Assembly: GCA_028715625.1 (NCBI GenBank)
Contig: JAQURL010000004.1
Span: 2,061-66,060, forward strand
From: Candidatus Margulisiibacteriota bacterium
Lineage (GTDB): Bacteria; Margulisbacteria; Riflemargulisbacteria; GWF2-35-9
Reading direction: 5' to 3'
Length of the DNA stretch: 64,000 nt
In this document: piece by piece, positions 38,406 to 55,132 of the stretch
Layout of the letters: each line of letters begins with the position of its first letter
Position numbering within the stretch: position 1 is the stretch's first letter
Notes under the pieces: model-generated
Databases searched by the model: none
The model's input: the letters and a program-made list of their open reading frames with translations, nothing else
What the model was told of the DNA's origin: nothing
Translations under genes and position numbers: made by a program

Positions 38406-38450
38406 TGGTTGCGGGGGTAGGACTTGAACCTACGACCTTCGGGTTATGAG
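38406..38450. repeat. attL: 45-bp direct repeat identical to the 3' half of tRNA-fMet (49239-49283)
   Basis: A perfect 45/45 match to the tRNA 3' end through the anticodon loop; the sequence diverges immediately on both sides. Confidence 0.75.
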
Positions 38451-39000: not shown

Positions 39001-39723
39001 ATGAAAAGTAAATTCTTTATTACATTATTAGGTCTTTTGTGTTTTTCTGTAATCCTTGCTGAAGAGATTGAAAATTCTAATATTTACTTCTTACAAGGAA
39101 ATGACAAGTCCTTACGCTCAGATTACACAGGAGCGATAGAAGACTATACGGTAGCGATCGAGCTGAATCCTGAAAACGAAGAGGCTTATACTGCTCGGGG
39201 GTCGTGTAAATCAATACAAAAGGGCTATATTGAAGCCATTCAAGACTTTACTAAAGCAATACAGATTAATTCAAAAAAAGAAGAATATTATTATTATCGA
39301 GGGAAAGCAAAGTTTAGTCTAAAAGACTACCTGGAAGCTATAAAAGATTTTAGCAAAGCAATCGAACTTAATCCTGGATATGCAGATGCTTATTGCAATA
39401 GAGGATCTGCTAAATACAATGTAAAAGAAGATGTTGCAGCCATAAAAGATTACAGCAAAGCAATCGAACTTAATCCTAAATATTCAGAAGCCTTTTATTA
39501 TCGAGGGAAAGCAAAGTTAAAACCAAAAGCCTACTCAGCGGCCATAAAAGATTTCAGCAAAGCAATTGAACTTAATCCTAGATATGCGCTAGCTTATTAC
39601 GCTAGAGGATCTGCTAAAATAATGCTCAACGATAAACAAGGGGCATTAGAGGATTTAAGTATTGCAGGAGAACTTGGTTATATCGAAGCTTACATAGCCA
39701 TAAGAAGTATACAAAATTTCTGA
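39001..39723 (+). CDS. Exported TPR-repeat protein (≥5 TPR units)
   Basis: A signal peptide and repeated A..Y…AI.D..KAIELNP.Y..AY..RG.AK units encoded by near-identical 102-bp DNA repeats. Confidence 0.75.
   Translation: MKSKFFITLLGLLCFSVILAEEIENSNIYFLQGNDKSLRSDYTGAIEDYTVAIELNPENEEAYTARGSCKSIQKGYIEAIQDFTKAIQINSKKEEYYYYRGKAKFSLKDYLEAIKDFSKAIELNPGYADAYCNRGSAKYNVKEDVAAIKDYSKAIELNPKYSEAFYYRGKAKLKPKAYSAAIKDFSKAIELNPRYALAYYARGSAKIMLNDKQGALEDLSIAGELGYIEAYIAIRSIQNF
39241..39648. repeat. Tandem 102-bp DNA repeats (4 units) encoding TPR motifs
   Basis: AAAGATTT(T/A/C)AGCAAAGCAAT(C/T)GAACTTAATCCT recurs at 39343, 39445 and 39547, with a more divergent copy at 39241. Confidence 0.6.
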
Positions 39724-40033: not shown

Positions 40034-40474
40034 ATGATAAACGAGAAAATTAAGGATAAAAAACAAATACCCGTATTATTTGTCATGCGAACCAATAAAA
40101 ATGGTAATTTAACGAAAAATTCTACCAATGAAGACTTTAGAGAGGTTGCATTAACGCCTATTGATATTTATAGCTCCTACATAGACATCGGAATGTCTAA
40201 AAGAAATGATATGAAATATAAAGAAGCTCTTAAGGCTTTCTCTGCAGCGATTGATATTGATGATTCTCAAGCATCTGCATACTTTAATCGGGCAATAGTA
40301 AAAGAAGAATTGAAGGATTATGAGGGTGCATTGAATGATTACGATCAAGTTATTTATTTAGACAATCATTACACAGAAGCATATATATATCGGGGAGAGT
40401 TAAAAGCCATATTGAAAGATGATATGGGATCAATTAGAGACTTTTTATTAGCAATATATTACAAAATTAAATGA
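40034..40474 (+). CDS. TPR-repeat protein (cytoplasmic)
   Basis: Three TPR-like units (…AYFNRAIVKEELKDYEGALNDYDQVIYLDNHYTEAYIYRG…). Confidence 0.6.
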   Translation: MINEKIKDKKQIPVLFVMRTNKNGNLTKNSTNEDFREVALTPIDIYSSYIDIGMSKRNDMKYKEALKAFSAAIDIDDSQASAYFNRAIVKEELKDYEGALNDYDQVIYLDNHYTEAYIYRGELKAILKDDMGSIRDFLLAIYYKIK

Positions 40475-41294: not shown

Positions 41295-41528
41295 ATGGAA
41301 GTGATGAAAATGAAATTAAAAAATAAAAAATTTGATTTCCAAGAATATACTGAAGCATTTATAGATTCCTCTGACAACGACGATCTTGAAAGTTATATAT
41401 CTCAAGACTTTGAAGAGTCCGTTAAGATTGAACAGGAATTGTTGCCAGAACTATGTGAAGAGGACCTTCGTAAAGTCATAAAATATATGAAAAGGAATGC
41501 GAAAAATGTCATCAACAATAAAAGATAA
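41295..41528 (+). CDS. Hypothetical small acidic protein
   Basis: A 77-aa ORF rich in D/E residues, directly upstream of the recombinase. Confidence 0.25.
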   Translation: MEVMKMKLKNKKFDFQEYTEAFIDSSDNDDLESYISQDFEESVKIEQELLPELCEEDLRKVIKYMKRNAKNVINNKR

Positions 41529-42273
41529 ATTATCTGTAAAAGTTGTAGGTTATTGTAGGGTCAGCACAGAGAACCAAAGAGAAGAGGGCACTATCCAAAT
41601 TCAAGAAAAGGCTCTTATCGACTACTGCCGAGAGAACAGACTCGAGCTTATGGCTCTTTTTAAAGATAATGGTGTCAGCGGTGGACTGGAAAACCGTCCA
41701 GCCCTTTCAGAACTCTTTGATTATCTGGAAAATAATTCCGATATTGAAAGCGTAGTTATCTTTAAATTAGATCGATTAGCCAGAGATTTATACATCCAAG
41801 AACATCTTATCAAAAAATTGGAGTTGTTGGATAAGAAGCTTATCAGTATTAAAGAGCCAAACCTTGATAGCAAAGACCCAATGAGAAAAGCTTTCCGTCA
41901 ATTTATGGGTATCGTTTCAGAGCTTGAAAAAGCCTTTATTACAATGAGGTTAAGTGGGGGACGAATTAATAAAGCCAAGAAAGGTGGTTATGCTGGTGGA
42001 GGCCCAGCATTTGGCTATTTGGCAAAAAACAAAGACTTAAAGGTTAATGATGGACAAACTGAAATCGTTAAACAAATCTTTAAAATTAGACGATATAAGA
42101 AATTAAGTTTTGCTAAGATTGCAAGATATCTCAATAACCTTGGAGTAAAAACTGTTAAAGGCGGAAAATGGTACGCCAGTACAGTGAAGTATATAGTAGG
42201 GAATCCTATTTATAAAGGAAAGCTAAGATATAAAGACCAGTTAAATAAACGTAAGGACCTAGGGATAGTCTGA
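41506..42273 (+). CDS. Serine recombinase (resolvase catalytic domain + partial recombinase domain; appears C-terminally truncated)
   Basis: VVGYCRVSTENQ carries the active-site Ser, and ~110 aa of recombinase domain follow with a premature end. AAGGA lies 9 nt before the ATG. Confidence 0.6.
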   Translation: MSSTIKDKLSVKVVGYCRVSTENQREEGTIQIQEKALIDYCRENRLELMALFKDNGVSGGLENRPALSELFDYLENNSDIESVVIFKLDRLARDLYIQEHLIKKLELLDKKLISIKEPNLDSKDPMRKAFRQFMGIVSELEKAFITMRLSGGRINKAKKGGYAGGGPAFGYLAKNKDLKVNDGQTEIVKQIFKIRRYKKLSFAKIARYLNNLGVKTVKGGKWYASTVKYIVGNPIYKGKLRYKDQLNKRKDLGIV

Positions 42274-43714: not shown

Positions 43715-44158
43715 TCATTTATTGTTAAGAGATTCCTTTTTCTTTTTTTTACGATATTCTCTCATGTACTCACGAAAATACTTTTTTTTATTTACTCCTA
43801 ACGATTTGGGAATAGCAATAGTTAATCTATGATACGCATTATTTTTTCTATCAGCTAGCCCTCCAATTTTGTAATAACTATATTCTTTATAATGTGAAAC
43901 CCTTAAATTTTCACAGCTTCCTATATATGCCCCATACACCAACCTATGAACTAGATACTTTTTACGCACTCCCAATTTAGACAAGGAAACAACTTCATAT
44001 CCTTTTGAAGTAATGCTAAGTTTAAGCCATTTCTGAGATTTAACAGAGAAAATTCTTCCTCTATTCGAGATAATATAGAGCTTTTCATATCCTTTAACAT
44101 ATTTTGGTCTTTCGTCCCAGGGAATAACCGACCCTCGAAGGTTGGAAACATAGTTCAT
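43715..44158 (-). CDS. NUMOD4 / HNH_3 homing-endonuclease-like protein
   Basis: Contains IPWDERPKYVKGYEKLYIISNRGRIFS (NUMOD4) and KGYEVVSLS…VHRLVYGAYIG (HNH_3). The internal Met start is preferred. Confidence 0.55.
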   Translation of the reverse strand: MNYVSNLRGSVIPWDERPKYVKGYEKLYIISNRGRIFSVKSQKWLKLSITSKGYEVVSLSKLGVRKKYLVHRLVYGAYIGSCENLRVSHYKEYSYYKIGGLADRKNNAYHRLTIAIPKSLGVNKKKYFREYMREYRKKKKKESLNNK

Positions 44159-44379
44159 ACGTGTATTATACAGCAGTATTTGTGGTGTACACAATTTAAC
44201 ACCATCTATGGCTTTGTTTAAAAAGAGTAAAAATAAGTATACCACCATTATTGGATACATCTCTTTATAAACCGCATACTAGTTGGATGCATTGATGAAA
44301 AATAAAATAAGTTTTTAAAACATTATTAGTAAACTTTTGAAAGGAAAATATAAAAACTAAAAAAATAAAGGAGTAAAAA

Positions 44380-44789: not shown

Positions 44790-47063
44790 ATGTTTAGACC
44801 AAATAACAATAATAATTATTATGCGATGTTTGAGGATCAGACTCTTATTGCCGATTTAAAAAAAAATGGAAAAATCACAGAATTTGGTCATGCACCAAAA
44901 CCTATAAATCCTATTCTTGCTAAAACAGCAAATGAGGAGGGTTATGGAATTTTTTTTCCAATTCAAGAAACGCTACCAAATAGAAGAGCTTTAAAAGATA
45001 TTACGGCAATTCGTTGTTGGGCAATAGACCTTGATAATGGCTCGAAAAATGAGTTGACAGAATTAATATATAAATCACCACTTAAACCAAGCTTAATTGT
45101 CGAAACCAAGAATGGTTTCCATGTATATTTCTATGCTAACGAGAAAATAGTAATAAACAATGAAAATCGAGAGGAAATGATTAAGCGATACAGGGAAATC
45201 GTTGAAAAACGTCTTGTTCCCTTTTTTCGCTTGAAGGATGAGAAAGGAAATCTCATATATCAAAAGGATCAAAAAGGAAATAAAAAAGAAGTTGGCGCTG
45301 ATGGCAATGCTAAGGATTTATCAAGGATGCTTCGAGTCCCTGGATATTATCATTGTAAAGATAACAATAACCGTTTCTTGGTTAAAGTCGTCGCGGAGAA
45401 TGGGGCTAGTTATAGTGAACAACAAATGCTTGAGTCTTTTCCTGTTAATGAAACAAAACCTGAAAACCCACAAGAGAAATCAAAAAACTTAAAAGAGCCT
45501 ACAACTCCATCATTATATCAACTTTCAAAATTTGATAGCAAAAAGGGTCTTGAGCTTCTTTCGGGAACTGAGGCTGTAGGCTTCGAAGAATATTCTTTTA
45601 AGCCAAATAGCAATGGGACCTTACAAATTTTTGTAAATGGAAACAGCTCAAGTTGTTGGATAACAAAAGAAGGATTTATTGGAAGCCACGATAAAGGTGG
45701 ACCGACTCTTGTTCAGTGGCTGAAGTATTTTGGCCATGATTCCAAGAAAATCTGTGAAATTACCAAACATGTTTTTGGATTTGATAATAACTTGAGTGAA
45801 CAAAACATTGCAAATCTATTAACTATCGATGATTCAATAATTTATGATTCTCATGGATTTTATATGTACCTTAAAGATAAAGGAGTTTGGGAAAGTATTT
45901 CTAATGAGTATATAGGTAAACGAATTATTGTTTTGTTAAATAAATTTGCTTTCTCACCAAAAAACAGAGATTTAGATAATACCATCAATTTTATGAAAAA
46001 GTATTTTCTACCTTCAACATCGAAGGGTAAAAAAAGTGTTTTAAATCAAAACAAAGATATTTTTGTTTTAAAAAATACCATATTGAATCTCAAGATACTA
46101 GTTCCCCAACCTTTTAACAAGGAGCTATATTCGACGATACAAGTAGACTACACATATAATCCAAAGGCGCAATGCCATCGCTGGGAAAAGTTTATTTCAG
46201 AAGTTCTTCCCGACCCAAAGTTACAATTATTAATTCAGGAAATTGCCGGCTACTGTTTAACAGCTGAGACAAAACATCACAAAGCGTTTTTTCTGGTTGG
46301 AGATGGACGAAATGGAAAGTCTGTTTTTTTAAATATTTTAATAAAAATGGTCGGCAAACAAAATTGCTCACATGTCGACTATAGTAAATTGGAGGATAAT
46401 TTTGGTTTGGCTACTATGGTGAATAAGTTGTTAAATGTGAGCAGTGAGATCAGTGGATTATTCAAGAAAGAAACAGAGAATTATAAAAAAATTGTTGGTG
46501 GCGACCCTGTTGAGATAAACGAGAAACACAAACCGCAGTATGAAACAACGCTTTTTTGTAAGCTAGTATATGCTGCCAACAGCCTTCCAGCTTCGGCGGA
46601 TCGAACATATGGTTTTTTCTCCAAATTCTTAATAATTCCTTTTGAACAGAGGTTTACCGAGAAACTTGGAAATCAGGATAAGGATTTATCCTTAAAACTC
46701 GAGGAAGAACTGTCAGGAATATTTAATTGGGCTCTTACAGGGTTACAAAGGTTAAATAACCAGAATTTTTTTACGGAATCAGAAAAATCAGAAAATGTCC
46801 GTCATGAATATGAGAAGGACTCAAATAATTTCTTGATTTTTTTTGAAGATACCTTTGAAGCGTCTGAAACCGGCAATATAAACGCTGGTATCCTTTACAA
46901 ATTGTATAAAGAATATTGTGAAGAAAATACATATAAACCATTCTCAAAAAGAACAGTTGGCATTGAATTAAGCAAATTTCCTTTCTTTTCTAAGAGTAAG
47001 ATAAATAATGAACTCTTCTATTTTGGGTTTACAACTATTAAAGGAGAGAAACTTAATGACTAA
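44790..47063 (+). CDS. Bifunctional primase-polymerase / P4-family primase-helicase (Prim-Pol + D5_N + P-loop C-terminal domain)
   Basis: The N-terminal Prim-Pol motif is RCWAIDLD, and the central P-loop is GDGRNGKSVF. The 757-aa architecture is typical of phage/plasmid P4-type primases. Confidence 0.8.
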   Translation: MFRPNNNNNYYAMFEDQTLIADLKKNGKITEFGHAPKPINPILAKTANEEGYGIFFPIQETLPNRRALKDITAIRCWAIDLDNGSKNELTELIYKSPLKPSLIVETKNGFHVYFYANEKIVINNENREEMIKRYREIVEKRLVPFFRLKDEKGNLIYQKDQKGNKKEVGADGNAKDLSRMLRVPGYYHCKDNNNRFLVKVVAENGASYSEQQMLESFPVNETKPENPQEKSKNLKEPTTPSLYQLSKFDSKKGLELLSGTEAVGFEEYSFKPNSNGTLQIFVNGNSSSCWITKEGFIGSHDKGGPTLVQWLKYFGHDSKKICEITKHVFGFDNNLSEQNIANLLTIDDSIIYDSHGFYMYLKDKGVWESISNEYIGKRIIVLLNKFAFSPKNRDLDNTINFMKKYFLPSTSKGKKSVLNQNKDIFVLKNTILNLKILVPQPFNKELYSTIQVDYTYNPKAQCHRWEKFISEVLPDPKLQLLIQEIAGYCLTAETKHHKAFFLVGDGRNGKSVFLNILIKMVGKQNCSHVDYSKLEDNFGLATMVNKLLNVSSEISGLFKKETENYKKIVGGDPVEINEKHKPQYETTLFCKLVYAANSLPASADRTYGFFSKFLIIPFEQRFTEKLGNQDKDLSLKLEEELSGIFNWALTGLQRLNNQNFFTESEKSENVRHEYEKDSNNFLIFFEDTFEASETGNINAGILYKLYKEYCEENTYKPFSKRTVGIELSKFPFFSKSKINNELFYFGFTTIKGEKLND

Positions 47064-47268
47064 TCTACAACCGTATCTTACAGCGAAGGACGTCTCAAGA
47101 GTCCTTCGTATCGGACTCTCAACGGTTTATGCCTATGTTTGCAATGGTGCGCTAAATGCTGTTGAGCTTCCTCACACACGAGATTCTGTAGCTAAAAAGC
47201 GCAACAAAAAGTCAATTAGATTTAAAGTTGAGGATATCCAGAACTTTATGGATAATCTCAGTAAATAG
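47056..47268 (+). CDS. AlpA/Xis-like helix-turn-helix excisionase/regulator
   Basis: YLTAKDVSRVLRIGLSTVYAYV (HTH_17-like), sitting immediately upstream of the integrase. Confidence 0.55.
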   Translation: MTNLQPYLTAKDVSRVLRIGLSTVYAYVCNGALNAVELPHTRDSVAKKRNKKSIRFKVEDIQNFMDNLSK

Positions 47269-47280
47269 GAAAGAAAAGCT

Positions 47281-48285
47281 GTGGCGTTTATCAAAACAAT
47301 TTCTGGTAAAAAAGGCGTTACTTACCACATTGATGAGTATATCAATGGTAAACGTCGCAGCAAAAAAATCCCTGCACGGAATATGAAAGAAGCTAAGGAG
47401 TTTTTGAATAGTTATCTTTGGGAAAGGGTCAACTTCAAAACCCCTAGTCTGATGATGAAAGATATTCTGTTTAGTGAGTTAGCAAAAGAATATAGGGAAT
47501 TCTCCATGACAAGGAAAACAGTTGTTACTTTGTCCAGAGAACAGTCGATTATAAAAATCCTCAATACAGAAATTGGCAATATGTTGCTTAAACAAATTAA
47601 TTCAAATATTGTCGAAGCTCTTCAAACAAAGTGGAGCAATCATGGTAAAGCCAATAAAACCATAAATAATAGAACAGTATTGCTATCATCCATATTAAAC
47701 TACGCTATAACAAAAGAATACATACCTTATGCCCTCAAAATTAAACCTTTAAAAACAGATATTATCAGACCAAAATTCTATACTGATGGTGAGTTAAAAC
47801 TAATTCTCGAAAGTGCTGATGAAATGTTAGGTAACATTATTAAGGTTCTAATAAATACAGGGCTAAGAACAAATGAACTAAGACATTTAAAATGGGAAGA
47901 CATTGATTTTAAGAATAAATTATTAAGAGTTGAAAAATCAAAATCTCACAAATTCCGTGTAGTCCCAATAAACAATAAACTTCTAGAGTTATTGAATTTC
48001 TTAAGGAAAAAGAAAACACACAAACAAATATATCTCTTTGAATTTAATGAGGGCTTACCTATAAATGACTATTACCATAAATTTAAACGGTTATTAAAAA
48101 AGCTAAATATATCGGGCGATGTGCATCAGTTTCGCCATACTTTCGCCACACAATTAGTAGAGAGAAACGCTAACATTTACGAAGTCCAACACCTTCTTGG
48201 TCACGCCAGTGTTCAGACTACCCAGCGTTATGCCCACGTTAAACAGGATAAACTATTTCAGACAGTTAATCTGTTGTGTGGTTGA
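47281..48285 (+). CDS. int: Tyrosine-type site-specific integrase
   Basis: R (GLRTNELRHL), H-x-x-R (HQFRHTFAT) and H…Y (LLGHASVQTTQRYAHV) catalytic residues; GTG start. Confidence 0.85.
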   Translation: MAFIKTISGKKGVTYHIDEYINGKRRSKKIPARNMKEAKEFLNSYLWERVNFKTPSLMMKDILFSELAKEYREFSMTRKTVVTLSREQSIIKILNTEIGNMLLKQINSNIVEALQTKWSNHGKANKTINNRTVLLSSILNYAITKEYIPYALKIKPLKTDIIRPKFYTDGELKLILESADEMLGNIIKVLINTGLRTNELRHLKWEDIDFKNKLLRVEKSKSHKFRVVPINNKLLELLNFLRKKKTHKQIYLFEFNEGLPINDYYHKFKRLLKKLNISGDVHQFRHTFATQLVERNANIYEVQHLLGHASVQTTQRYAHVKQDKLFQTVNLLCG

Positions 48286-48321
48286 AGTATGCTATGAATT
48301 CGAGTTAATATGTAAAAAGAA

Positions 48322-49155
48322 ATGAAAATTGGTTCGACTAAAACTTTTATTGATGCTTTAAATAACATAACAACAAGTGATGATTATGAGTTGTTTTTTC
48401 GAGGCCATTCACAAGAAAAAAAATATAGTTTGATTCCTGCAATTTATAGGCCTAAATATATAAATTTTTTAAGGAATGAGGATCGAATATTCAGAGAAAT
48501 TCTTTCATATCTGCCTGAAGATTTCAGAAATGAAAAAACTACATTTGATTGTCTTGTAAAAATGCAACATTATTCAATACCTACTAGACTGTTGGATTTG
48601 ACAAAAAATCCTCTTGTAGCCCTTTACTTTGCAGCGAGAAAAGATATAAAATTAAGAGGCGAAGTAGTCGTTCTTAAAATACCCAAAAAAGAAATTCGTC
48701 ATTTTGAAAGTGACAGTGTTTCAATTGTATCAAATCTTTCAAAACGTCCATTCAATTTTGATATTTCAGGATACAAGATCAATCGAATTAATATATTCAA
48801 CAAGAAAAAAGAGATAAGCTACCTTCTTCATGAAATAAAAAGTGAAAAACCATATTTTTTGTCAATTATTGAGCCAAAAACGATTGGTTCCGTTTTATGT
48901 GTTAACCCCAAAATGAATAATCAAAGAATACTACGACAAGAAGGTGCATTTCTTTTGTTTGGTATTAATCAAACAAAAGAAATGCCTGCAACAATTCAAA
49001 AAGATTGGATATTATTTAATAGCGAAAAGAAAAAATTTTTAATCTATCAGAAAGAAAAAATTTTGAATGAATTAAATCGCGTAGGCATAAACGAAAGGTT
49101 TTTATTTCCGGAGCTAGATAAACAAGCAGAATTTTTAAAGGCAAAATACGCTTAA
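48322..49155 (+). CDS. FRG-domain protein
   Basis: ELFFRGHS, MQHYSIPTRLLDLTKNPLVALYFAA and NQRILRQEGAFLLF match the FRG domain (PF08867) conserved blocks. Confidence 0.75.
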   Translation: MKIGSTKTFIDALNNITTSDDYELFFRGHSQEKKYSLIPAIYRPKYINFLRNEDRIFREILSYLPEDFRNEKTTFDCLVKMQHYSIPTRLLDLTKNPLVALYFAARKDIKLRGEVVVLKIPKKEIRHFESDSVSIVSNLSKRPFNFDISGYKINRINIFNKKKEISYLLHEIKSEKPYFLSIIEPKTIGSVLCVNPKMNNQRILRQEGAFLLFGINQTKEMPATIQKDWILFNSEKKKFLIYQKEKILNELNRVGINERFLFPELDKQAEFLKAKYA

Positions 49156-49200: not shown

Positions 49201-49228
49201 ATAAAAAACCTCTAGTTTCCTAGAGGTC
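49201..49228 (-). terminator. Rho-independent terminator of tRNA-fMet (minus strand)
   Basis: A 7-bp perfect stem CCTCTAG/CTAGAGG with a 4-nt loop, followed on the minus strand by TTTTTTAT. Confidence 0.45.
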
Positions 49229-49238
49229 GCATAATTAC

Positions 49239-49314
<76 letters not shown>

Positions 49315-49364
49315 TCATTGGTTATTTTTTTCGCAAGGTCATAATTATAGCAGCGAATAAAAGC

Positions 49365-50225
49365 CTAGTCAAACACTACGGTTTTGTTCTGGTATACAAG
49401 AATCTTGCGTTCGATGTGTTTTTTTATAGCGAAAGAAAGCACCTGCTTTTCCAGTTCTTTGCCTTTTTCAATGTAATTTTGCAAACTATCCTTATGATTA
49501 ATATTTACAACCTGCTGGGCAATAATCGGCCCGTCATCAAGGGCTTCGGTAACATAATGCGCTGTTGAGCCCAACACCTTAACCCCCCGATCGTAGGCCT
49601 GTTTGTAAGGGTTTGCACCGATAAAGGCGGGCAGAAAGGAATGATGTACATTTATGATTTGTTGTGGATAAGCCCGAACAAACCCCGGTGTCAGTATCTG
49701 CATATAACGCGCCAGGATAATCAGCTCAACACCATGATCTGTCAAAAGTTTCATCTGCGCCTGTTCCTGTTCTTTTTTGTTTTCACGAAACATAGGAAAA
49801 AAATAAAAGGGAGTCTGGTAATAACCGGCAATTGTTTCATTATCCTGGTGATTACTAACTATCAGTTGAACATCCATAGCCAACTCGGAATTTTTTATTT
49901 TATAAAGCAGGTCATGCAAACAGTGGTCATCTCTGGAAACAAACACAGCCGTTTTTATTAAAGAGTCACTGAAATAGAGTTTCAGGTCCATATTCCAGTG
50001 TTTTTTTATGGATTGCAGGGAACTAAGGATATTCTCTTTTTGTATTAAGAAATGAGAAAGGTCCCATTCTATGCGCATAAAAAAAATATTATTTACCGGA
50101 TCTATATGCTGCTCGGCATGCAGTATGTTGCCTTTATTTTGAAAAATGTATTCGGTTATGGTAAAGACCAAACCTTCTTTATCCGGAGCCGAGATTAGCA
50201 GTATTGCTGATGTTGTTTTATCCAT
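49365..50225 (-). CDS. purU: Formyltetrahydrofolate deformylase
   Basis: An N-terminal ACT domain plus a formyl-transferase domain (HHSFLPAF…, 286 aa). Confidence 0.8.
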   Translation of the reverse strand: MDKTTSAILLISAPDKEGLVFTITEYIFQNKGNILHAEQHIDPVNNIFFMRIEWDLSHFLIQKENILSSLQSIKKHWNMDLKLYFSDSLIKTAVFVSRDDHCLHDLLYKIKNSELAMDVQLIVSNHQDNETIAGYYQTPFYFFPMFRENKKEQEQAQMKLLTDHGVELIILARYMQILTPGFVRAYPQQIINVHHSFLPAFIGANPYKQAYDRGVKVLGSTAHYVTEALDDGPIIAQQVVNINHKDSLQNYIEKGKELEKQVLSFAIKKHIERKILVYQNKTVVFD

Positions 50226-50272: not shown

Positions 50273-53200
50273 ATGAAAAAGAATCTTCTGCTGGGTATTA
50301 TTTTCTTTGTAGTTCTTGGTTTTTTGGCAAAACTGGTATTGGAAAACTGGGTTAAAAACGAAGTTACTAAAACATTGTCCGGAATTTTAACGACTCCAAT
50401 AAAGATTGCTTCAATCGACATAGGCTTTTTGTCTTCAGCGACAATTAAAGGAATCACTATTGGCGATCCTCTGAGCCCCAGCAGTAACATGGCTCAAATT
50501 GAGGAGCTAAAAGTAAATTACAGCCTGCTCAGATTACGCAGAACCAGGGATCCCCTGCAGTTAATTAATTCCTTACAGATCAGTAATGGCAATATAAACA
50601 TTCACCATAGCAGTGATGACCGGTATAATCTGATCCAACAGTTGAAACCTACGCCACCCAACGCGAAACCCTTTCAGATTCCGCACATTAAAATATACTT
50701 CAGAAAATCTACAGTGACCTATACTGACGAAAGAGGATTTGGACCCAAGGCGCTGGAAAGCCCGGAAGTTAATGTTTTATATAATGCAGTAGGCAACGTT
50801 CAGTTGAAAAAAAATCAGGTGATGATTAACCTTGAAGGAAATCTGAACCGAAAAAGAGACAACAAGGTTGTAATCAATGGTTCTTTGCAGGGCGAGGATT
50901 TTAAATTTCATATTTTTTCCAGAAAAGCCGATGTGGCGAACTTGATAGGTTATTTTTCAGGATTAAAAGAAATCAAATTTTACAAAGCTATTTCCAGAGT
51001 TGAAGCCCAGCTGCAATCAAAAAAGGTACAGAAGCTCACAGATATTCCGCTTGATTTTCAGGTGAGCATGGACGTTAAAGAAGCTGAATTCGCGACTGTT
51101 TGGGTGCCACCGACCATGTCTTTGCAGGCCGGGCAGGTATTTGTTTCCAATCGTGGAGTTATTTTTAAAGATATACAAGGCAGGGCTAACGGTCAGAAAT
51201 TTAGCCTGCAGGGTGATATTAAAGACTTTATGATTCTTAATCTGGCCATCAGAAGCAAAGAAATAGACAACCATTATTCGGCTGAATTTTTGCCATTTCT
51301 GAAAAACTGGAACCTGGATGGCAAGTGCGACTTTTTGTTGAACATAAAATCCATTGCAACAGGGAATATTGTTCTGGAAGGAAAAGCTAATAATTACTCG
51401 GGTCATTTTTTTAATTATGTTGTACAGAAAGCAGATCTGCAGTTTAGAAAAGAGAAAAACGATATTTCTTTAAGCTTGCCTCTTATTCAGGCTTATAACG
51501 GGACCGGTACAGCCACTGGTAGTGTAACCATTATACCGAACCATACTCCCTATCTGGATATAACCATGGCCTTAAAAAAGGTTTTACTTCCGGAATATTT
51601 TCAGTCCAAACACTTTACCGGCCAGGGTGATATTGACCTGCATCTGGACCATTATGCGGACGACATCAAAGGCCAGCTGTTCTTTTGGGGTAAAGACGCT
51701 TCCGCCTTTGGGCAGAAGATTAACCATATGGTGGTTATGTGGGAAAAAACGCCGGAAAAGCTTGTTTTTGGTCCAGGTTCATATGTTGCGATAAATAATG
51801 ATGAATCAAAACTTTATTTCACTGGCTTTTTGAACAATCACGCTTTTTTTGATATAACCTTCAAGGGTAATGATCTGTTAACCGACAACTTTTATTTTTT
51901 TTACTCCAAAGTTGGAGACTACAAGGCCAGGTTCAAAGCCGATGGGCGTGTAACCGGAGTCTTTGATGAGGCATTTAAACGCAATCCTCTGCAGCATACC
52001 AAAGGCTTGGTTAAAATCAACGTATCTAACTTCGCCGTGAAGAACAGCACGGAATTATTTAGCGGTGAAGGCACGGTTACTCTGGATGAATACGCTTATT
52101 TGGAATTCGCTTTAAAAAACAAAACATCTTTTTTCAACATAAAAGCCAAGACTACCAATAAGAGCCTGGTATACAGCAACTTTACACTGGGCAATGTTTC
52201 TCTGGTCAACGCCAAACCGTTTGTAAAAAACCAGAAATACGATTTTAACGGTATAGCCAGCGGCAAGTTAACAATGTTCCCTGACCAAAACCAGCTTTTC
52301 TTAAACAACTATGGTGTAACCGGCAGTATTCAAATAGTAAACGGCCAGCTGGGCAGCCAGACAGTTCAGTATGTTTCCGGGAACATAGCGCTACAAAACA
52401 ACAAGTTCAGTATTGGTGCCGGCCAGTTTGTACAACCTTTTTCCAATATCAGGTTAATACAGGCAGAATATTTCTCATCACATAATTTCAGCGTAATTTT
52501 TGATCATGCCAAGATTCGCAGTAACGAATGGCAAGGCTATATGCCCAAGAACATAAAGCTGTCTCTGACAAATTTAAATGGTAAACTAACAGTTGATGGG
52601 GCTTCGGTTACAGCTGATTTGGATGTGGAAACAGATCTTTTTATTTACAACAATGTTACTATGCCGAATTTTAAAGGACACATTAATTTGCAGAATAAAC
52701 AGGTCCGCCTGAGCGATTTCTCAATAATTAATAAAAATGACACTTATCAGATTTCCGGCTATATTGACCTGGATTTCAAAAAACAAACCATTCCCAAACA
52801 TAATCTGGAAGTTAATCTGACCTCTGCCAAGCTGGAGAATTTATCTGAATTGTATCAGCAGTTAAGGCCGTTATGGACAAAAGAAACAATACCCAAAGAA
52901 ACCAAGGAAGACAAACGCACAGAAGTATTTGGCAAATATAACCAGCTGGTAAAAAAGAACTCCCTAAATCTTTATTCAATTGATGGCGGAAACATTTCCG
53001 AACTGCTATATGACCTGAAATCTGTAAAACAAAAGGATCGTCTCAATGATTTGCCTAAAGCCGAAGGAAAAATTTCGGGTATATTGCGGTCTTCTTATAA
53101 AGACAAGTGGGTAATTTTCAGTGATCTGAATGTTAATTCCGGACGTATTGTACAAACGCAGGTAGAACAGTTGAATTTTCAGGCAAGGCTTGAAGACAAT

Positions 53201-55132
53201 GACATTCATATCGGAATAAAATGCAGTAAAGTTAAGCTTCTGGAGAGTAATTTTGAAAACCTCGATTTCGAATCATTTTTTAACCCTGACAGCGAGATAT
53301 TAAAGGTTAATAAGCTTAATGTTGATTTTGAGGGAACAACCTATAAAGAAATTTTAAAGGGACAGATTAATTTGTCTCCCCTGTTGTCAAAAACAGAAGC
53401 CCATCGTAATGACCTTGATTTACGACTAAATTTACATAAAGATAACATAAACATTTTATCCATGATGAACAGTTCCCTGAAAAGGATATCCAATCAGGGA
53501 GATGTGGTGCTGGATATTACCGGACCCTTCTGGAGCCCTGTCTTTAATTCTCAGAAGGTAAGTTTGAAAAAGTTCCAAATTCAATTCGTATCAGGTTTTG
53601 CCATAAAAGCCCCATTAACGGTAGACAATGCAGAGCTGAATATTGTTGACAATATTATCAACATCCCTTCTTTGGAAGTGGTCTGGCAGGGTGATGACAC
53701 CAATGGGGCCAGAAACGTTTTTGTGGCGTCAGGCAATATAGCTGCCGATTTATCATTTAAAGACGCTGCAAATATACCGCTGATAATGAATTTGACCATA
53801 AAACCAACCCAGCTAAACCTGAACATAGAAGACTTATATGTTGGCAAAGCGGAAACTGAGGAAACCCGTGTACAGGGAACATTTTTAATTCCTGTAACCA
53901 AAAAAGCCAAAGAAATCGCTAAACAAAATATTCTTGAGGAAAAGGAGGAAGGTCCTGTGCTCAGGACCAAAGCAGTGCTATCTGACGGCCGTTTTATTAT
54001 TCTTAGCAATCGTCCTGCTGTGGTGGATAAACCTGCCATGAAGCTGGACATGTGGGTTTATTTAAGCAAGGGACTGTTTATTACCGGAAAAAATATCGGG
54101 GCAGGAGTGAACAACTTTATAAATAATATCAATATTGAGTTTGATGAAGAGCCCATGGATATGCACATAAAAGGATCGCTGAATACAATTGATTTTGAAA
54201 AAAAATTCAAGCTAAAGAGCGGGAAAATTGTTTTTATGGACCAGATGTTCCAGCTGCTGGAGAAGTCCAAACAGAGGGAAATTTTCAGTAATAAACCTGA
54301 AAATATAGATGATAATTATGTGGATATCAGAATGCTGCCGGACCCGGATTATCCGACAAAACGCAAGGCCACACCTTACTTTAATTTAAAAGCTTATTCC
54401 ATTGTAAAAAAAGTTATTTCGGTTACGGACAACACAAATATAGCCTCTAACAACATGGTAACCAAAATTGAGGATCACGTATTTGTTGTTTATGTTAACG
54501 GCTTTCTGAACACTCCCAAATCTTTCGCCATCGAACATTATCTTTATGAAAACAATACCTATAAACTGGTAGAGGAAAAAATATATATGGATAAAATATC
54601 CGCGGAACAGCTGGATACTATTTCTTCATATTTATTACCCGTACTTTTAAAGCCTCAGTTTTATCAGAATTTACTGAACAAAGGATTGGTAAACAACAAA
54701 GAAGCCAATGAGCTTTTAAAGAGTTATTCGGCTTCGCAAATAGACCTGTGGATAGATCAGCAGTTAAGACCTTTTGAAAAAGAAATAGCCAGCGCCATCG
54801 GCCTTTATGATGTAAAGATTGAGCATAAGTTCGGAGAGGAAATAGTGAACTCGGTTCCGGTTTTTCAAACGGATACTGCCATTGATACCAATAATTCCAG
54901 CAAAGTATCTGTGGAATACATAAAAGATCTGTTTTTAAAGAAACTGTTTGTCAAACTAAAAACCGGAGTTAACCAGGACCCGCAATCCAAGAGTTACTCA
55001 CTACAGCTCACAGAGTATGAGCTGATGTGGTTTTTGTCAGATTTTATCAGCGTAAATTATGGCAACCATAATTTACAGAATAGCGATAGCGTATATGGAG
55101 CTTTTTCAATCAATGCGAATTTTGATTTCTAG
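50273..55132 (+). CDS. TamB/AsmA-like giant inner-membrane-anchored periplasm-spanning protein
   Basis: A single N-terminal TM anchor, 1619 aa of beta-rich sequence, and a position immediately upstream of two Omp85 genes. Confidence 0.5.
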   Translation: MKKNLLLGIIFFVVLGFLAKLVLENWVKNEVTKTLSGILTTPIKIASIDIGFLSSATIKGITIGDPLSPSSNMAQIEELKVNYSLLRLRRTRDPLQLINSLQISNGNINIHHSSDDRYNLIQQLKPTPPNAKPFQIPHIKIYFRKSTVTYTDERGFGPKALESPEVNVLYNAVGNVQLKKNQVMINLEGNLNRKRDNKVVINGSLQGEDFKFHIFSRKADVANLIGYFSGLKEIKFYKAISRVEAQLQSKKVQKLTDIPLDFQVSMDVKEAEFATVWVPPTMSLQAGQVFVSNRGVIFKDIQGRANGQKFSLQGDIKDFMILNLAIRSKEIDNHYSAEFLPFLKNWNLDGKCDFLLNIKSIATGNIVLEGKANNYSGHFFNYVVQKADLQFRKEKNDISLSLPLIQAYNGTGTATGSVTIIPNHTPYLDITMALKKVLLPEYFQSKHFTGQGDIDLHLDHYADDIKGQLFFWGKDASAFGQKINHMVVMWEKTPEKLVFGPGSYVAINNDESKLYFTGFLNNHAFFDITFKGNDLLTDNFYFFYSKVGDYKARFKADGRVTGVFDEAFKRNPLQHTKGLVKINVSNFAVKNSTELFSGEGTVTLDEYAYLEFALKNKTSFFNIKAKTTNKSLVYSNFTLGNVSLVNAKPFVKNQKYDFNGIASGKLTMFPDQNQLFLNNYGVTGSIQIVNGQLGSQTVQYVSGNIALQNNKFSIGAGQFVQPFSNIRLIQAEYFSSHNFSVIFDHAKIRSNEWQGYMPKNIKLSLTNLNGKLTVDGASVTADLDVETDLFIYNNVTMPNFKGHINLQNKQVRLSDFSIINKNDTYQISGYIDLDFKKQTIPKHNLEVNLTSAKLENLSELYQQLRPLWTKETIPKETKEDKRTEVFGKYNQLVKKNSLNLYSIDGGNISELLYDLKSVKQKDRLNDLPKAEGKISGILRSSYKDKWVIFSDLNVNSGRIVQTQVEQLNFQARLEDNDIHIGIKCSKVKLLESNFENLDFESFFNPDSEILKVNKLNVDFEGTTYKEILKGQINLSPLLSKTEAHRNDLDLRLNLHKDNINILSMMNSSLKRISNQGDVVLDITGPFWSPVFNSQKVSLKKFQIQFVSGFAIKAPLTVDNAELNIVDNIINIPSLEVVWQGDDTNGARNVFVASGNIAADLSFKDAANIPLIMNLTIKPTQLNLNIEDLYVGKAETEETRVQGTFLIPVTKKAKEIAKQNILEEKEEGPVLRTKAVLSDGRFIILSNRPAVVDKPAMKLDMWVYLSKGLFITGKNIGAGVNNFINNINIEFDEEPMDMHIKGSLNTIDFEKKFKLKSGKIVFMDQMFQLLEKSKQREIFSNKPENIDDNYVDIRMLPDPDYPTKRKATPYFNLKAYSIVKKVISVTDNTNIASNNMVTKIEDHVFVVYVNGFLNTPKSFAIEHYLYENNTYKLVEEKIYMDKISAEQLDTISSYLLPVLLKPQFYQNLLNKGLVNNKEANELLKSYSASQIDLWIDQQLRPFEKEIASAIGLYDVKIEHKFGEEIVNSVPVFQTDTAIDTNNSSKVSVEYIKDLFLKKLFVKLKTGVNQDPQSKSYSLQLTEYELMWFLSDFISVNYGNHNLQNSDSVYGAFSINANFDF

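What the first reader, a model, noticed from the sequence alone, without database searches (positions are those of the whole stretch)
48322..49155. FRG-domain protein inserted between integrase and attR
Integrases normally abut their att site. Here an 834-bp gene encoding a stand-alone FRG-domain protein (FRGH, QHYSIPTRLLDLT and NQRILRQEGAF blocks) sits in that position, i.e. in a terminal accessory slot of the satellite-like island. FRG-domain proteins are poorly characterised. A terminal position on a mobile element is where defence or superinfection-exclusion cargo tends to sit, so this is a candidate single-gene anti-phage or abortive-infection function.
Basis: partly seen in the sequence, partly recalled or inferred. 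Interest (0 to 1): 0.6.

Follow-up and report, generated by a model that had tools for sequence, protein, structure and literature searches.

The report
FRG-domain defence candidate on integrated island

Summary
ORF 48322-49155 (+) encodes a 277-aa protein with a clear Pfam FRG hit (E=7e-21). It lies between a tyrosine integrase (47281-48285) and tRNA-Met (49239-49314, minus strand). The 3' 45 nt of that tRNA are repeated perfectly at 38406-38450, which bounds a 10.8-kb low-GC island.

In the integrase's nearest relatives a tRNA lies only 75-154 bp past the integrase. Here the 953-bp gap is filled by the FRG gene, so it does occupy an extra slot.

The defence-candidate reading is supported but already catalogued. 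The protein matches PADLOC PDC-S15 over its full length (E=4.7e-99). PDC-S15 is one of 145 untested candidates found by embedding in type I RM, BREX and DISARM systems.

Homolog contexts agree:
- nested in type I RM operons, and once fused to HsdM;
- in the old/tin hotspot of P2-like prophages, in 60 of 5,426 complete E. coli genomes;
- terminal in Firmicutes islands at guaA;
- on 306 plasmids and next to toxin-antitoxin, TIR, Abi and Wadjet-like genes.

There is no conserved partner gene.

The likely mechanism is inferred, not shown: an NAD+-consuming or ADP-ribosylating effector. The Aravind lab places Frg in the ADP-ribosyltransferase (ART) superfamily, and my Foldseek hits to ART and RES toxins are only weak. 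I found no experimental test in the literature library searched. This is a new member of a known candidate family, of modest interest.

The parts
48322..49155 (+). FRG-domain / PADLOC PDC-S15 gene (277 aa), a stand-alone candidate anti-phage effector
   Evidence: ORF, translation. Pfam FRG E=7e-21. PADLOC PDC-S15 E=4.7e-99 over the full length, with 14 PDC-S15 HMMs hit. phrog_4962 E=8e-44. AF2 model pLDDT 87.2, pTM 0.85.
47281..48285 (+). Tyrosine integrase of the island, 36 bp upstream of the FRG gene
   Evidence: Pfam Phage_integrase E=1e-33. phrog_1 integrase E=5e-62.
47008..47268 (+). HTH_17 protein, excisionase/AlpA-like
   Evidence: Pfam HTH_17 E=1.8e-8. phrog_66 'excisionase and transcriptional regulator' E=2e-4.
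44790..47063 (+). Primase-helicase (D5_N + DUF5906 + Pox_D5), the replication module of the island
   Evidence: Pfam hits. phrog_864 DNA primase E=3e-88.
49239..49314 (-). tRNA-Met(CAT), the integration target; its 3' end faces the island
   Evidence: ARAGORN. A promoter-like site at 49372..49344 (11 of 12 positions) and a terminator-like site at 49228..49207, both on the minus strand.
49239..49283 (.). attR core: the 45-nt repeat, equal to the 3' 45 nt of tRNA-Met
   Evidence: the repeat finder family D1, 100% identity.
38406..38450 (.). attL core: the displaced copy of the 45-nt tRNA 3' end, marking the far end of the island
   Evidence: the repeat finder family D1, 100% identity. Sequence read directly.
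49207..49228 (-). GC-rich hairpin followed by a T-run. It is the terminator of tRNA-Met and lies inside the island edge, 52 bp after the FRG stop codon. It has an A-run on the other side, so it may also end the FRG transcript (inference).
   Evidence: Terminator-like site. Sequence.
48946..48985 (.). Perfect 16-bp inverted repeat with an 8-nt loop inside the FRG coding sequence (codons G208-P222). Significance uncertain.
   Evidence: it is the only stem-loop with arms of at least 13 nt in the 64-kb window; it is not conserved in 80 homolog genes, and 4 of 300 synonymous-codon shuffles reach a stem of 16 or more.

Best explanation
The gene encodes a stand-alone member of the FRG / PDC-S15 family. 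It is carried as accessory cargo at the integrase-proximal end of a 10.8-kb element integrated in tRNA-Met. Its most likely role is anti-phage defence of the abortive-infection type, or exclusion of competing mobile elements.

Proposed mechanism (inferred). The compact 277-aa protein is an ADP-ribosyltransferase-superfamily enzyme. Its candidate active-site residues are the invariant R27-G28-H29 at the end of the first strand, Q82-H83-Y84, T88-R89 and D92 around the second strand, and N200, R202 and Q206 just before a later strand. It is kept inactive until a phage cue appears. It then either depletes NAD+ (as an NADase or NAD+ phosphorylase, like RES toxins) or ADP-ribosylates an essential host or phage macromolecule, which stops phage replication.

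No partner gene is needed. Expression is probably by read-through from the integrase operon, or from a weak promoter in the 36-bp spacer.

What is shown: family membership, an intact gene, its position in the island, the mobile and defence-linked distribution of homologs, and the absence of a conserved partner.

What is inferred: the ART fold, NAD+ chemistry, phage triggering and the defence phenotype.
For: Family membership:
- Pfam FRG E=7e-21.
- PADLOC PDC-S15 E=4.7e-99 over the full length.
- PDC systems are candidates derived from genes embedded in type I RM, BREX and DISARM systems.

Independent context evidence from my own sampling of 80 species genomes:
- Immediate neighbours fall in 109 different Pfam families, so there is no conserved partner. 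The commonest are type I RM subunits (N6_Mtase 5, Methylase_S 4, HSDR_N 2).
- HsdM- or HsdR-like genes lie within the fetched flanks in 12 of 80 loci. In 9 of these FRG is on the same strand, directly after hsdM or between hsdM and hsdR.
- One protein, P0155, fuses HARE-HTH, HsdM_N and N6_Mtase to a full FRG module.

Phage and plasmid evidence:
- A 38%-identical homolog sits between gpA and the cos end of P2-like phage P2_2H1.
- In E. coli prophages it sits between gpA and portal gpQ, next to an HTH + reverse transcriptase pair. This is the old/tin anti-phage hotspot of Rousset et al. 2022 (PMC9122126).
- Their supplementary table lists 'hypothetical + FRG + RVT_1' with the same accessions.
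- 60 of 5,426 complete E. coli genomes carry this allele.

Other contexts:
- Wadjet-like MksE/DUF3584 plus DUF4145.
- Type I RM + GmrSD + PemK + integrase, with FRG as the last gene before guaA.
- A type II RM system.
- Abi_C plus IS110.
- A 13-kb plasmid carrying HicAB, RelE/HigA, TIR and caspase genes.
- 306 plasmids, of which 201 are conjugative.

Distribution. The family has 24,118 clusters at 50% identity with E<=1e-3. It is spread patchily over many phyla at about 40-52% identity.

Mechanism:
- The Aravind lab classes Frg as an ART-superfamily clade and a predicted antiviral effector or NADase (PMC9503650).
- For the AF2 model (pLDDT 87), nine of the ten top-ranked Foldseek PDB hits come from ART-superfamily toxin or enzyme entries. 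These are the TreTu complex, ParT (four chains), VPA0770, the NatRT complex and Arr (two entries).

Slot. Relatives of this integrase abut their tRNA at 75-154 bp, against 953 bp here.
Against: - No experiment on any FRG protein was found in the held literature. PDC-S15 is explicitly among the 'untested' candidates.
- I could not inspect 3D clustering of the invariant residues.
- A canonical catalytic Glu at the 'ExE' position is not conserved: residue 207 varies and G208 is invariant.
- The window copy is not next to any other recognised defence system.
- A few homologs sit among housekeeping genes, for example L002/L017 between trmD and an unknown gene.
- No close relatives of this island exist in the collections (best integrase identity 37%). 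Whether this slot is a variable cargo hotspot could therefore not be tested.
Confidence: 0.6

Rival explanations
1. The gene is an addiction or stabilisation toxin. On this view FRG is a toxin whose main role is post-segregational stabilisation of the island or plasmid (toxin-antitoxin-like), not phage defence.
For: - In Firmicutes homologs an HTH_19/Xre-type gene overlaps the FRG start by 4 nt (L003, L005, L006; L019). This resembles Xre-RES toxin-antitoxin pairs.
- The weak structural neighbours include RES toxins (ParT, VPA0770, NatRT complex).
- On the Thiolapillus plasmid FRG follows two toxin-antitoxin modules.
- FRG is common on conjugative plasmids.
Against: - In the window no antitoxin-like gene adjoins FRG. 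The upstream gene is the integrase, the downstream feature is the tRNA, and no ORF of 50 aa or more overlaps.
- Across 128 immediate neighbours only 2 are HTH_3/HTH_19 proteins, so a cognate antitoxin is not a family feature.
- Embedding in RM operons and in the P2 old/tin hotspot fits defence better.
- Toxin-antitoxin and abortive-infection roles are not mutually exclusive.
Confidence: 0.15
2. The gene serves the element's own life cycle or inter-element warfare. On this view FRG serves the island itself, for example by modifying a helper phage or host factor to favour the island's induction or transfer. Alternatively it acts as an anti-defence enzyme, rather than protecting the host.
For: - It sits directly after the excisionase-like gene and the integrase, on the same strand with a 36-bp gap, so it is probably co-transcribed with them.
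- Phages themselves carry FRG proteins (phrog_4962; 10 phage records).
- ART enzymes are used by phages to reprogram hosts (T4 Alt and Mod; my own knowledge).
- Long-form FRG genes lie in Bacteroidales ICE regions with DUF3945, DUF4099 and Hcp.
Against: - Relatives of the integrase do without it.
- The phage copies are in accessory moron or hotspot positions on the opposite strand to core genes, not in core modules.
- Many homologs are in RM operons with no mobile element nearby.
Confidence: 0.15
3. The gene is a hitch-hiking or decaying gene with no current function, or an ordinary cellular enzyme that happens to be on the island.
For: - There are no expression data.
- No sigma-70-like promoter passed the scan immediately upstream.
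- Some homologs lie among housekeeping genes.
Against: - The ORF is intact and full length relative to the family HMM.
- All 43 invariant family positions are retained.
- A 277-codon ORF in 31% GC DNA is unlikely by chance.
- The att repeats are perfect, which suggests a recent or active element.
- The patchy distribution across phyla, with about 50% identity between distant phyla, argues against a housekeeping role.
Confidence: 0.07

Closest known systems
PADLOC phage defence candidate PDC-S15 (Payne et al., bioRxiv 10.1101/2024.01.29.577857)
   Same: There is a full-length HMM match (PDLC04933, E=4.7e-99, positions 8-280 of 286; 14 PDC-S15 models hit). It has a single-gene architecture with no conserved partner. 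Family members are embedded in type I RM operons.
   Different: PDC-S15 is an untested candidate, not a validated system. The window copy is not embedded in an RM, BREX or DISARM system. It sits between the integrase and att of a tRNA-Met island in a Margulisbacteria MAG.
Pfam FRG domain (PF08867), the 'Frg' clade of the ADP-ribosyltransferase superfamily (Aravind lab, PMC9503650)
   Same: The HMM hit is above the gathering score. The FRG(H) motif and the QHY..PTRLLD block are invariant. The role predicted there, an antiviral effector and possible NADase, matches the contexts found here.
   Different: Pfam models only aa 24-108. The remaining 170 residues, which are conserved across this subfamily, are unannotated. 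The ART assignment could not be reproduced with significance using the tools available.
RES-domain toxins of Xre-RES toxin-antitoxin systems (ParT, NatT, VPA0770; MbcT from my own knowledge)
   Same: They are among the best, though non-significant, structural neighbours. They are NAD+-dependent toxins that either degrade NAD+ or ADP-ribosylate a target. Some Firmicutes FRG genes have an overlapping upstream Xre-type HTH gene.
   Different: There is no Pfam RES hit. No adjacent antitoxin is present in the window or in most homologs. The protein is larger (277 aa against about 160-250) and has a distinct motif set.
Cargo of the old/tin hotspot of P2-like prophages (Rousset et al. 2022, PMC9122126), including E. 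coli FRG protein WP_016239053
   Same: A homologous FRG module (38% identity) occupies a validated anti-phage hotspot at the end of a mobile element. It shares the logic of terminal accessory cargo.
   Different: The E. coli protein is a 454-aa long form with an N-terminal extension of about 170 aa. It was listed in that study's supplementary table, but the main text does not name it among the systems with activity. The element and the slot differ (gpA-gpQ, not int-att).
Stand-alone NAD+-depleting defence proteins such as DSR1/DSR2 (SIR2) or TIR-domain effectors (my own knowledge)
   Same: This is a functional analogy only: a single polypeptide that would combine sensing with NAD+ consumption to abort infection.
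   Different: The catalytic folds are unrelated (SIR2 or TIR against a putative ART fold). Those proteins are much larger and have recognisable sensor domains. No activity is shown for FRG.

Membership tests
Pfam FRG (PF08867) | HMM score above the curated gathering threshold | tested here: met
   75.4 bits against a cut-off of 25, E=7e-21, aa 24-108.
Pfam FRG (PF08867) | Conserved N-terminal F-R-G motif | tested here: met
   F26-R27-G28-H29 are present. R27, G28 and H29 are invariant in 25 aligned homologs.
PADLOC PDC-S15 | Full-length match to PDC-S15 HMMs | tested here: met
   PDLC04933 E=4.7e-99, protein positions 2-276 against profile positions 8-280 of 286. Thirteen further PDC-S15 models also hit.
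PADLOC PDC-S15 | Single-gene system with no obligatory partner | tested here: met
   128 immediate neighbours from 79 loci fall in 109 Pfam families, none present in more than 5. In the window the flanks are the integrase and a tRNA.
PADLOC PDC-S15 | Members embedded in type I RM, BREX or DISARM systems (the basis of the candidate call) | tested here: met
   This holds at family level. FRG is on the same strand, directly after hsdM or between hsdM and hsdR, in 9 of 80 loci, and there is an HsdM-FRG fusion, P0155. It does not hold for the window copy itself.
PADLOC PDC-S15 | Anti-phage activity | not testable with these tools
   The authors list it as untested. No experimental paper was found.
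ADP-ribosyltransferase (ART) superfamily | Split beta-sheet ART fold recognisable by structure comparison | tested here: inconclusive
ADP-ribosyltransferase (ART) superfamily | Catalytic triad ([HR] on strand 1, [YS] motif, [EDQ] at the start of strand 5) lining an NAD+ pocket | tested here: inconclusive
   Invariant R27/H29, H83/Y84 and Q206 occur in the expected order relative to the predicted strands. Their 3D clustering could not be inspected, and a catalytic Glu is not conserved.
ADP-ribosyltransferase (ART) superfamily | NAD+ binding or turnover | not testable with these tools
   This needs biochemistry.
RES-Xre toxin-antitoxin | RES-domain HMM match | tested here: not met
   No RES hit for the window protein or for any of 25 homologs, even at E<=10.
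RES-Xre toxin-antitoxin | Adjacent co-oriented Xre/HTH antitoxin gene | tested here: not met
   The window has none adjacent. An adjacent HTH gene occurs only in a Firmicutes subset.
Phage satellite (P4-like or PICI-like), the host element | Integrase, excisionase/AlpA-like regulator and primase-helicase replication module | tested here: met
   Integrase, HTH_17 and a D5_N/DUF5906 primase-helicase are present.
Phage satellite (P4-like or PICI-like), the host element | Genes for hijacking helper capsids or packaging (for example sid/psu, cpm, small terminase), or a cos/pac site | tested here: not met
   No Pfam or PHROG hit to capsid, packaging or hijacking functions among the island ORFs; five ORFs have no hit or unknown function. 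Absence of evidence only.

The most novel reading that the evidence does not exclude
FRG/PDC-S15 proteins would be a widespread class of self-contained sensor-effector immune enzymes, comprising more than 24,000 clusters at 50% identity. In this reading a divergent ART-fold core with an H/R-Y-Q type active site, lacking the canonical catalytic Glu, is switched on directly by a phage component. It would then perform an NAD+-dependent reaction not yet described for defence, for example a new ADP-ribosyl acceptor or NAD+ phosphorolysis. The compact 277-aa stand-alone form seen here would be the minimal unit. Integrative elements in lineages as remote as Margulisbacteria would carry it in the int-att slot so that it is expressed with the integrase operon.
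Probability: 0.25. Interest if true: 0.6.

Novelty: new member of a known kind. Interest (0 to 1): 0.3.

Why it matters
If FRG/PDC-S15 proteins are shown to defend against phages, they would add a very abundant single-gene system to the known immune repertoire and widen the set of NAD+/ADP-ribose-based immunity. The family has about 24,000 clusters at 50% identity. It is found on plasmids, ICEs, prophage hotspots and RM operons across many phyla.

The window copy adds little on its own. It is a clean example of the minimal 277-aa form as the only recognisable defence-type cargo of a small tRNA-integrated element in a poorly studied phylum.

The more practical lead from this work is a natural E. 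coli allele, WP_016239053. It sits in the validated P2 old/tin hotspot in 60 complete genomes and could be tested directly in a model host.

Tried and rejected
1. Sequence link to solved structures. phmmer with the protein and hmmsearch with the 25-sequence profile found nothing meaningful in PDB sequences.

3. Pfam at E<=10 on 25 family members, to find a bridge to RES or ART families. None appeared.

4. A profile search of 1.84 billion representatives, to reach distant relatives. The 150 listed hits were all strong FRG proteins, so it gave family size and fusions but no bridge to another family.

5. Looking for relatives of the island, to test whether the int-att slot is a variable cargo hotspot. 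The best integrase relative is only 37% identical, and the primase has no close relative in viral contigs. Only the weaker 'relatives abut their tRNA' comparison was possible.

6. NCBIfam. No named family matched.

7. Aravind-lab primary papers (PMC7685563, PMC4678834). Not held in the library.

8. DNA of the closest homolog, P0002 (66% identity), to test conservation of the internal hairpin. No DNA was available.

9. Considered and rejected:
- That FRG is part of a retron with the neighbouring reverse transcriptase in E. coli. The two genes are convergent, on opposite strands.
- That the weak TPR-protein hit to a PDC-S15 HMM means anything. E=4e-4 over 40 residues of a repeat.
Full report
**1. 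The observation**

The window has an ATG-started ORF at exactly 48322..49155 on the plus strand, encoding 277 aa.

- Pfam FRG (PF08867) matches aa 24-108 at E=7e-21, 75.4 bits against a gathering score of 25.
- The identical protein is in NCBI as 'FRG domain-containing protein [Candidatus Margulisbacteria bacterium]' on a 66-kb contig.
- The N-terminus aligns with the start of the other stand-alone homologs.
- The match to the best family HMM covers positions 8-280 of 286, so the gene is intact.

**2. The setting**

On the same strand, upstream, lie four genes:
- a primase-helicase (44790..47063; D5_N, DUF5906, Pox_D5);
- an HTH_17 excisionase-like gene (47008..47268);
- a tyrosine integrase (47281..48285);
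- the FRG gene, 36 bp after the integrase.

Eighty-three bp after the FRG stop codon is tRNA-Met(CAT), at 49239..49314 on the minus strand. The 3' 45 nt of that tRNA (49239-49283) recur perfectly at 38406-38450. This bounds a 10.8-kb element whose GC is 0.30-0.35, against 0.38-0.42 in the flanks.

The tRNA has its own strong promoter-like site. Its terminator hairpin (49228..49207, minus strand) lies inside the island edge.

The rest of the island encodes two TPR proteins, a 258-aa serine-recombinase fragment, a repressor-like HTH, an HNH/NUMOD4 protein and several unknowns. No capsid or packaging function is recognisable, and no other PADLOC system is present. 'Satellite-like' is therefore plausible but unproven.

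**3. Is the slot unusual?**

No close relatives of this integrase exist in the metagenome collection; the best is 37% identical. I examined 22 of its relatives. In 8 of them a tRNA gene starts 75-154 bp after the matched integrase segment. In L090 and L091 the geometry is the same as here, with the integrase on the plus strand and the tRNA on the minus strand. In the window the distance is 953 bp, and it is filled by the FRG gene.

Whether the slot is a variable cargo hotspot could not be tested, because there are no close island relatives.

**4. What the protein is**

PADLOC-DB gives a full-length match to PDC-S15 (PDLC04933, E=4.7e-99), and 14 PDC-S15 models hit in all. PDC systems are 145 phage defence candidates. 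Payne et al. derived them from genes embedded in BREX, DISARM and type I RM systems and explicitly call them untested (bioRxiv 10.1101/2024.01.29.577857).

- PHROGs places the protein in phrog_4962, of unknown function.
- NCBIfam has no model for it.
- Searches for 'FRG domain', PF08867, PDC-S15 and 'FRG' with 'anti-phage' found no experimental study.

**5. Family size and distribution**

- A word-index search found 1,442 homologs. The next best after the self-hit is 66% identical, and the rest are about 45-52% identical, in Flavobacteriia, Bacteroidales, Erysipelotrichia and Betaproteobacteria.
- A full HMM scan of 1.84 billion representatives found 24,118 clusters at 50% identity with E<=1e-3, of which 2,110 have E<=1e-30.
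- A scan of one genome per species found at least 568 species with a relative. They include Proteobacteria, Bacteroidota, Firmicutes, Acidobacteriota, Planctomycetota, Gracilibacteria, Spirochaetia and Thermotogales.

About 50% identity between such distant phyla, with patchy presence, indicates horizontal spread.

**6. Contexts of homologs**

I called ORFs in the 80 genome loci and analysed the neighbours.

No conserved partner. The 128 immediate neighbours fall in 109 Pfam families.

Commonest neighbours:
- type I RM subunits (N6_Mtase 5, Methylase_S 4, HSDR_N 2);
- guaA (4);
- Hcp/TssD (4), together with DUF3945 and DUF4099, which mark Bacteroidales ICE regions carrying long-form FRG proteins of about 495 aa.

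Type I RM. HsdM- or HsdR-like genes occur within the fetched flanks in 12 of 80 loci. In 9 of them FRG is on the same strand, directly after hsdM or between hsdM and hsdR; in L068 and L087 the genes overlap by 4 nt. My rough expectation for a random 20-kb window is about 1% (own estimate, not computed). One database protein, P0155, fuses HARE-HTH, HsdM_N and N6_Mtase to a complete FRG module.

Other neighbourhoods:
- Wadjet-like MksE/DUF3584 with DUF4145;
- a type II RM pair;
- Abi_C with IS110;
- a 13-kb plasmid carrying HicAB, RelE/HigA, a cytidine deaminase, TIR and caspase genes.

Plasmids. 306 records carry a homolog, and 201 of them are conjugative.

The terminal layout. In Solobacterium (L003) and Colibacter (L019) the order is integrase, HTH, FRG, then guaA convergent, so FRG is the last gene of an island at the 3' end of guaA. 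Three further Firmicutes loci show FRG next to convergent guaA at a contig edge. In L082 an integrase ends 90 bp upstream of FRG on the same strand. Overall, however, a tyrosine recombinase lies within 2 kb in only 6 of 80 loci, and a tRNA within 2 kb in 2 of 80. The terminal slot is one of several habitats and not the rule.

A few copies lie among housekeeping genes, for example in Flavobacterium between trmD and an unknown gene.

**7. Phage evidence**

Ten phage records carry homologs.

- In P2-like phage P2_2H1 a 454-aa FRG protein lies between the replication endonuclease gpA and the right genome end.
- In E. coli prophages the same gene (WP_016239053) lies between gpA and portal gpQ, beside a convergent HTH + reverse transcriptase pair.
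- This is the locus Rousset et al. defined as the P2 anti-phage hotspot, which holds old and tin in P2 itself (PMC9122126). Their supplementary table lists 'hypothetical + FRG + RVT_1' with the same accessions. The main text does not name it among the systems with activity.
- The allele is present at 99% identity or more in 60 of 5,426 complete E. coli genomes.
- In the lambdoid phages Tritos and PhiR11_1 the gene sits in moron-like positions: opposite strand next to hokD and ImmA, or after the side tail fibre next to IS2.

**8. Structure and mechanism**

An AF2 model built from the 25-sequence alignment is confident (pLDDT 87.2, pTM 0.85) and forms one compact alpha/beta unit.

Invariant polar residues are R27-G28-H29 at the end of strand 22-29, Q82-H83-Y84, T88-R89 and D92 around strand 90-94, N200, R202 and Q206 just before strand 208-213, and P263-E264.

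Foldseek against PDB gives no significant match; the best E-value is 0.46. Nine of the ten top-ranked hits nevertheless come from ART-superfamily entries:
- the TreTu toxin complex (I did not establish which protein chain B is);
- ParT (four chains);
- VPA0770;
- the NatRT complex;
- rifampin ADP-ribosyltransferase Arr (two entries).

The order R/H on strand 1, then H-Y, then Q before a later strand resembles the three ART motifs. I could not check 3D clustering, and the canonical catalytic Glu is not conserved.

The mechanism I commit to is an NAD+-dependent abortive-infection effector. It would be either an NADase or NAD+ phosphorylase like RES toxins, or an ADP-ribosylating enzyme like ParT or DarT. 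I hold this at moderate confidence, as inference from family classification and context.

**9. Regulation**

There is no adjacent antitoxin-like gene in the window. A Firmicutes subset has an overlapping upstream Xre-type HTH gene, which recalls Xre-RES pairs.

N-terminal fusions occur to DUF1508/YegP, to pentapeptide repeats and to unannotated segments of 100-290 aa. These may be sensor or regulatory modules, which the 277-aa form lacks.

No sigma-70-like promoter passed the scan in the 36-bp spacer. By eye, TTGAAG-N18-TAATAT at about 48283-48312 is a weak candidate, reading the sequence. Co-transcription with the integrase is the simplest expectation.

**10. Rivals**

- An addiction-toxin role, 0.15.
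- A role in the element's own life cycle or in anti-defence, 0.15.
- No function, or a housekeeping function, 0.07.

The first two overlap with defence in practice.

**11. Verdict**

It is already known as a prediction, through PADLOC PDC-S15 and the Aravind Frg clade, and it is still untested. The window copy is a new member of a known candidate family. It is notable mainly as the minimal stand-alone form in an int-att slot of a Margulisbacteria element.

Interest is modest at 0.3. The most useful by-product is the E. coli P2-hotspot allele as a direct experimental handle.

Noticed in passing
window 48946-48985: A perfect 16-bp inverted repeat with an 8-nt loop lies inside the FRG coding sequence (GCATTTCTTTTGTTTG gtattaat CAAACAAAAGAAATGC; codons G208-P222). 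It is the only stem-loop with arms of at least 13 nt in the whole 64-kb window. It is not conserved in 80 homolog genes, and 4 of 300 synonymous-codon shuffles reach a stem of 16 or more. It could be an RNA hairpin, an operator or chance.
   Followed up: partly
window 41497-42273 (+): A 258-aa serine recombinase (Resolvase plus the start of the Recombinase domain; phrog_95 integrase, E=3e-60). It matches only positions 84-325 of the 651-position phrog_95 profile, so it may be a truncated remnant of a second recombinase inside the island.
   Followed up: no
window 39001-39723 and 40034-40474 (+): Two TPR-repeat proteins near the attL end of the island. The first has a hydrophobic N-terminus. 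Both match phrog_7590, a phage family of unknown function.
   Followed up: no
window 43715-44260 (-): An HNH/NUMOD4 homing-endonuclease-like ORF on the opposite strand, just upstream of the primase-helicase gene (Pfam NUMOD4 E=9e-9; PADLOC HEase E=5.5e-14).
   Followed up: no
window 49207-49228 (-) and 49344-49372 (-): tRNA-Met has a near-consensus promoter-like site (11 of 12 positions, with an extended TG). Its terminator hairpin lies within the island-side DNA, so the element supplies the tRNA's transcription terminator after integration.
   Followed up: no
L178 6001-8710 (E. coli NZ_AP022173.1); L173 (phage P2_2H1): In the old/tin hotspot of P2-like prophages, a 454-aa FRG protein (WP_016239053) lies convergent to an HTH + reverse transcriptase pair. 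The allele is in 60 of 5,426 complete E. coli genomes and is listed in the supplementary table of Rousset et al. 2022 as 'hypothetical + FRG + RVT_1'. It offers a ready model-host test case.
   Followed up: partly
protein P0155 (868 aa): A single predicted protein fuses HARE-HTH, HsdM_N and N6_Mtase (a type I RM methyltransferase) to a complete FRG module. It could be a Rosetta-stone link to RM systems or a gene-calling or frameshift artefact; I did not check which.
   Followed up: no
L018 621-1823, L056 692-1864; proteins P0018, P0070: Recurrent N-terminal fusion of two DUF1508 (YegP) repeats to the FRG module. P0146 carries pentapeptide repeats instead. These are possible sensor or regulatory domains.
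   Followed up: no
L003 9567-10843, L005, L006, L019 9513-10834, L020: In Firmicutes an Xre-type HTH_19 gene overlaps or abuts the FRG start (a 4-nt overlap in most; a 1-nt gap in L020). The pair is the last unit of an integrase-bearing island next to the 3' end of guaA. This two-gene variant is reminiscent of Xre-RES toxin-antitoxin modules.
   Followed up: partly
window 50273-55132 (+): A very long ORF of 1,619 aa with a hydrophobic N-terminus lies just beyond purU, outside the island. Not analysed.
   Followed up: no
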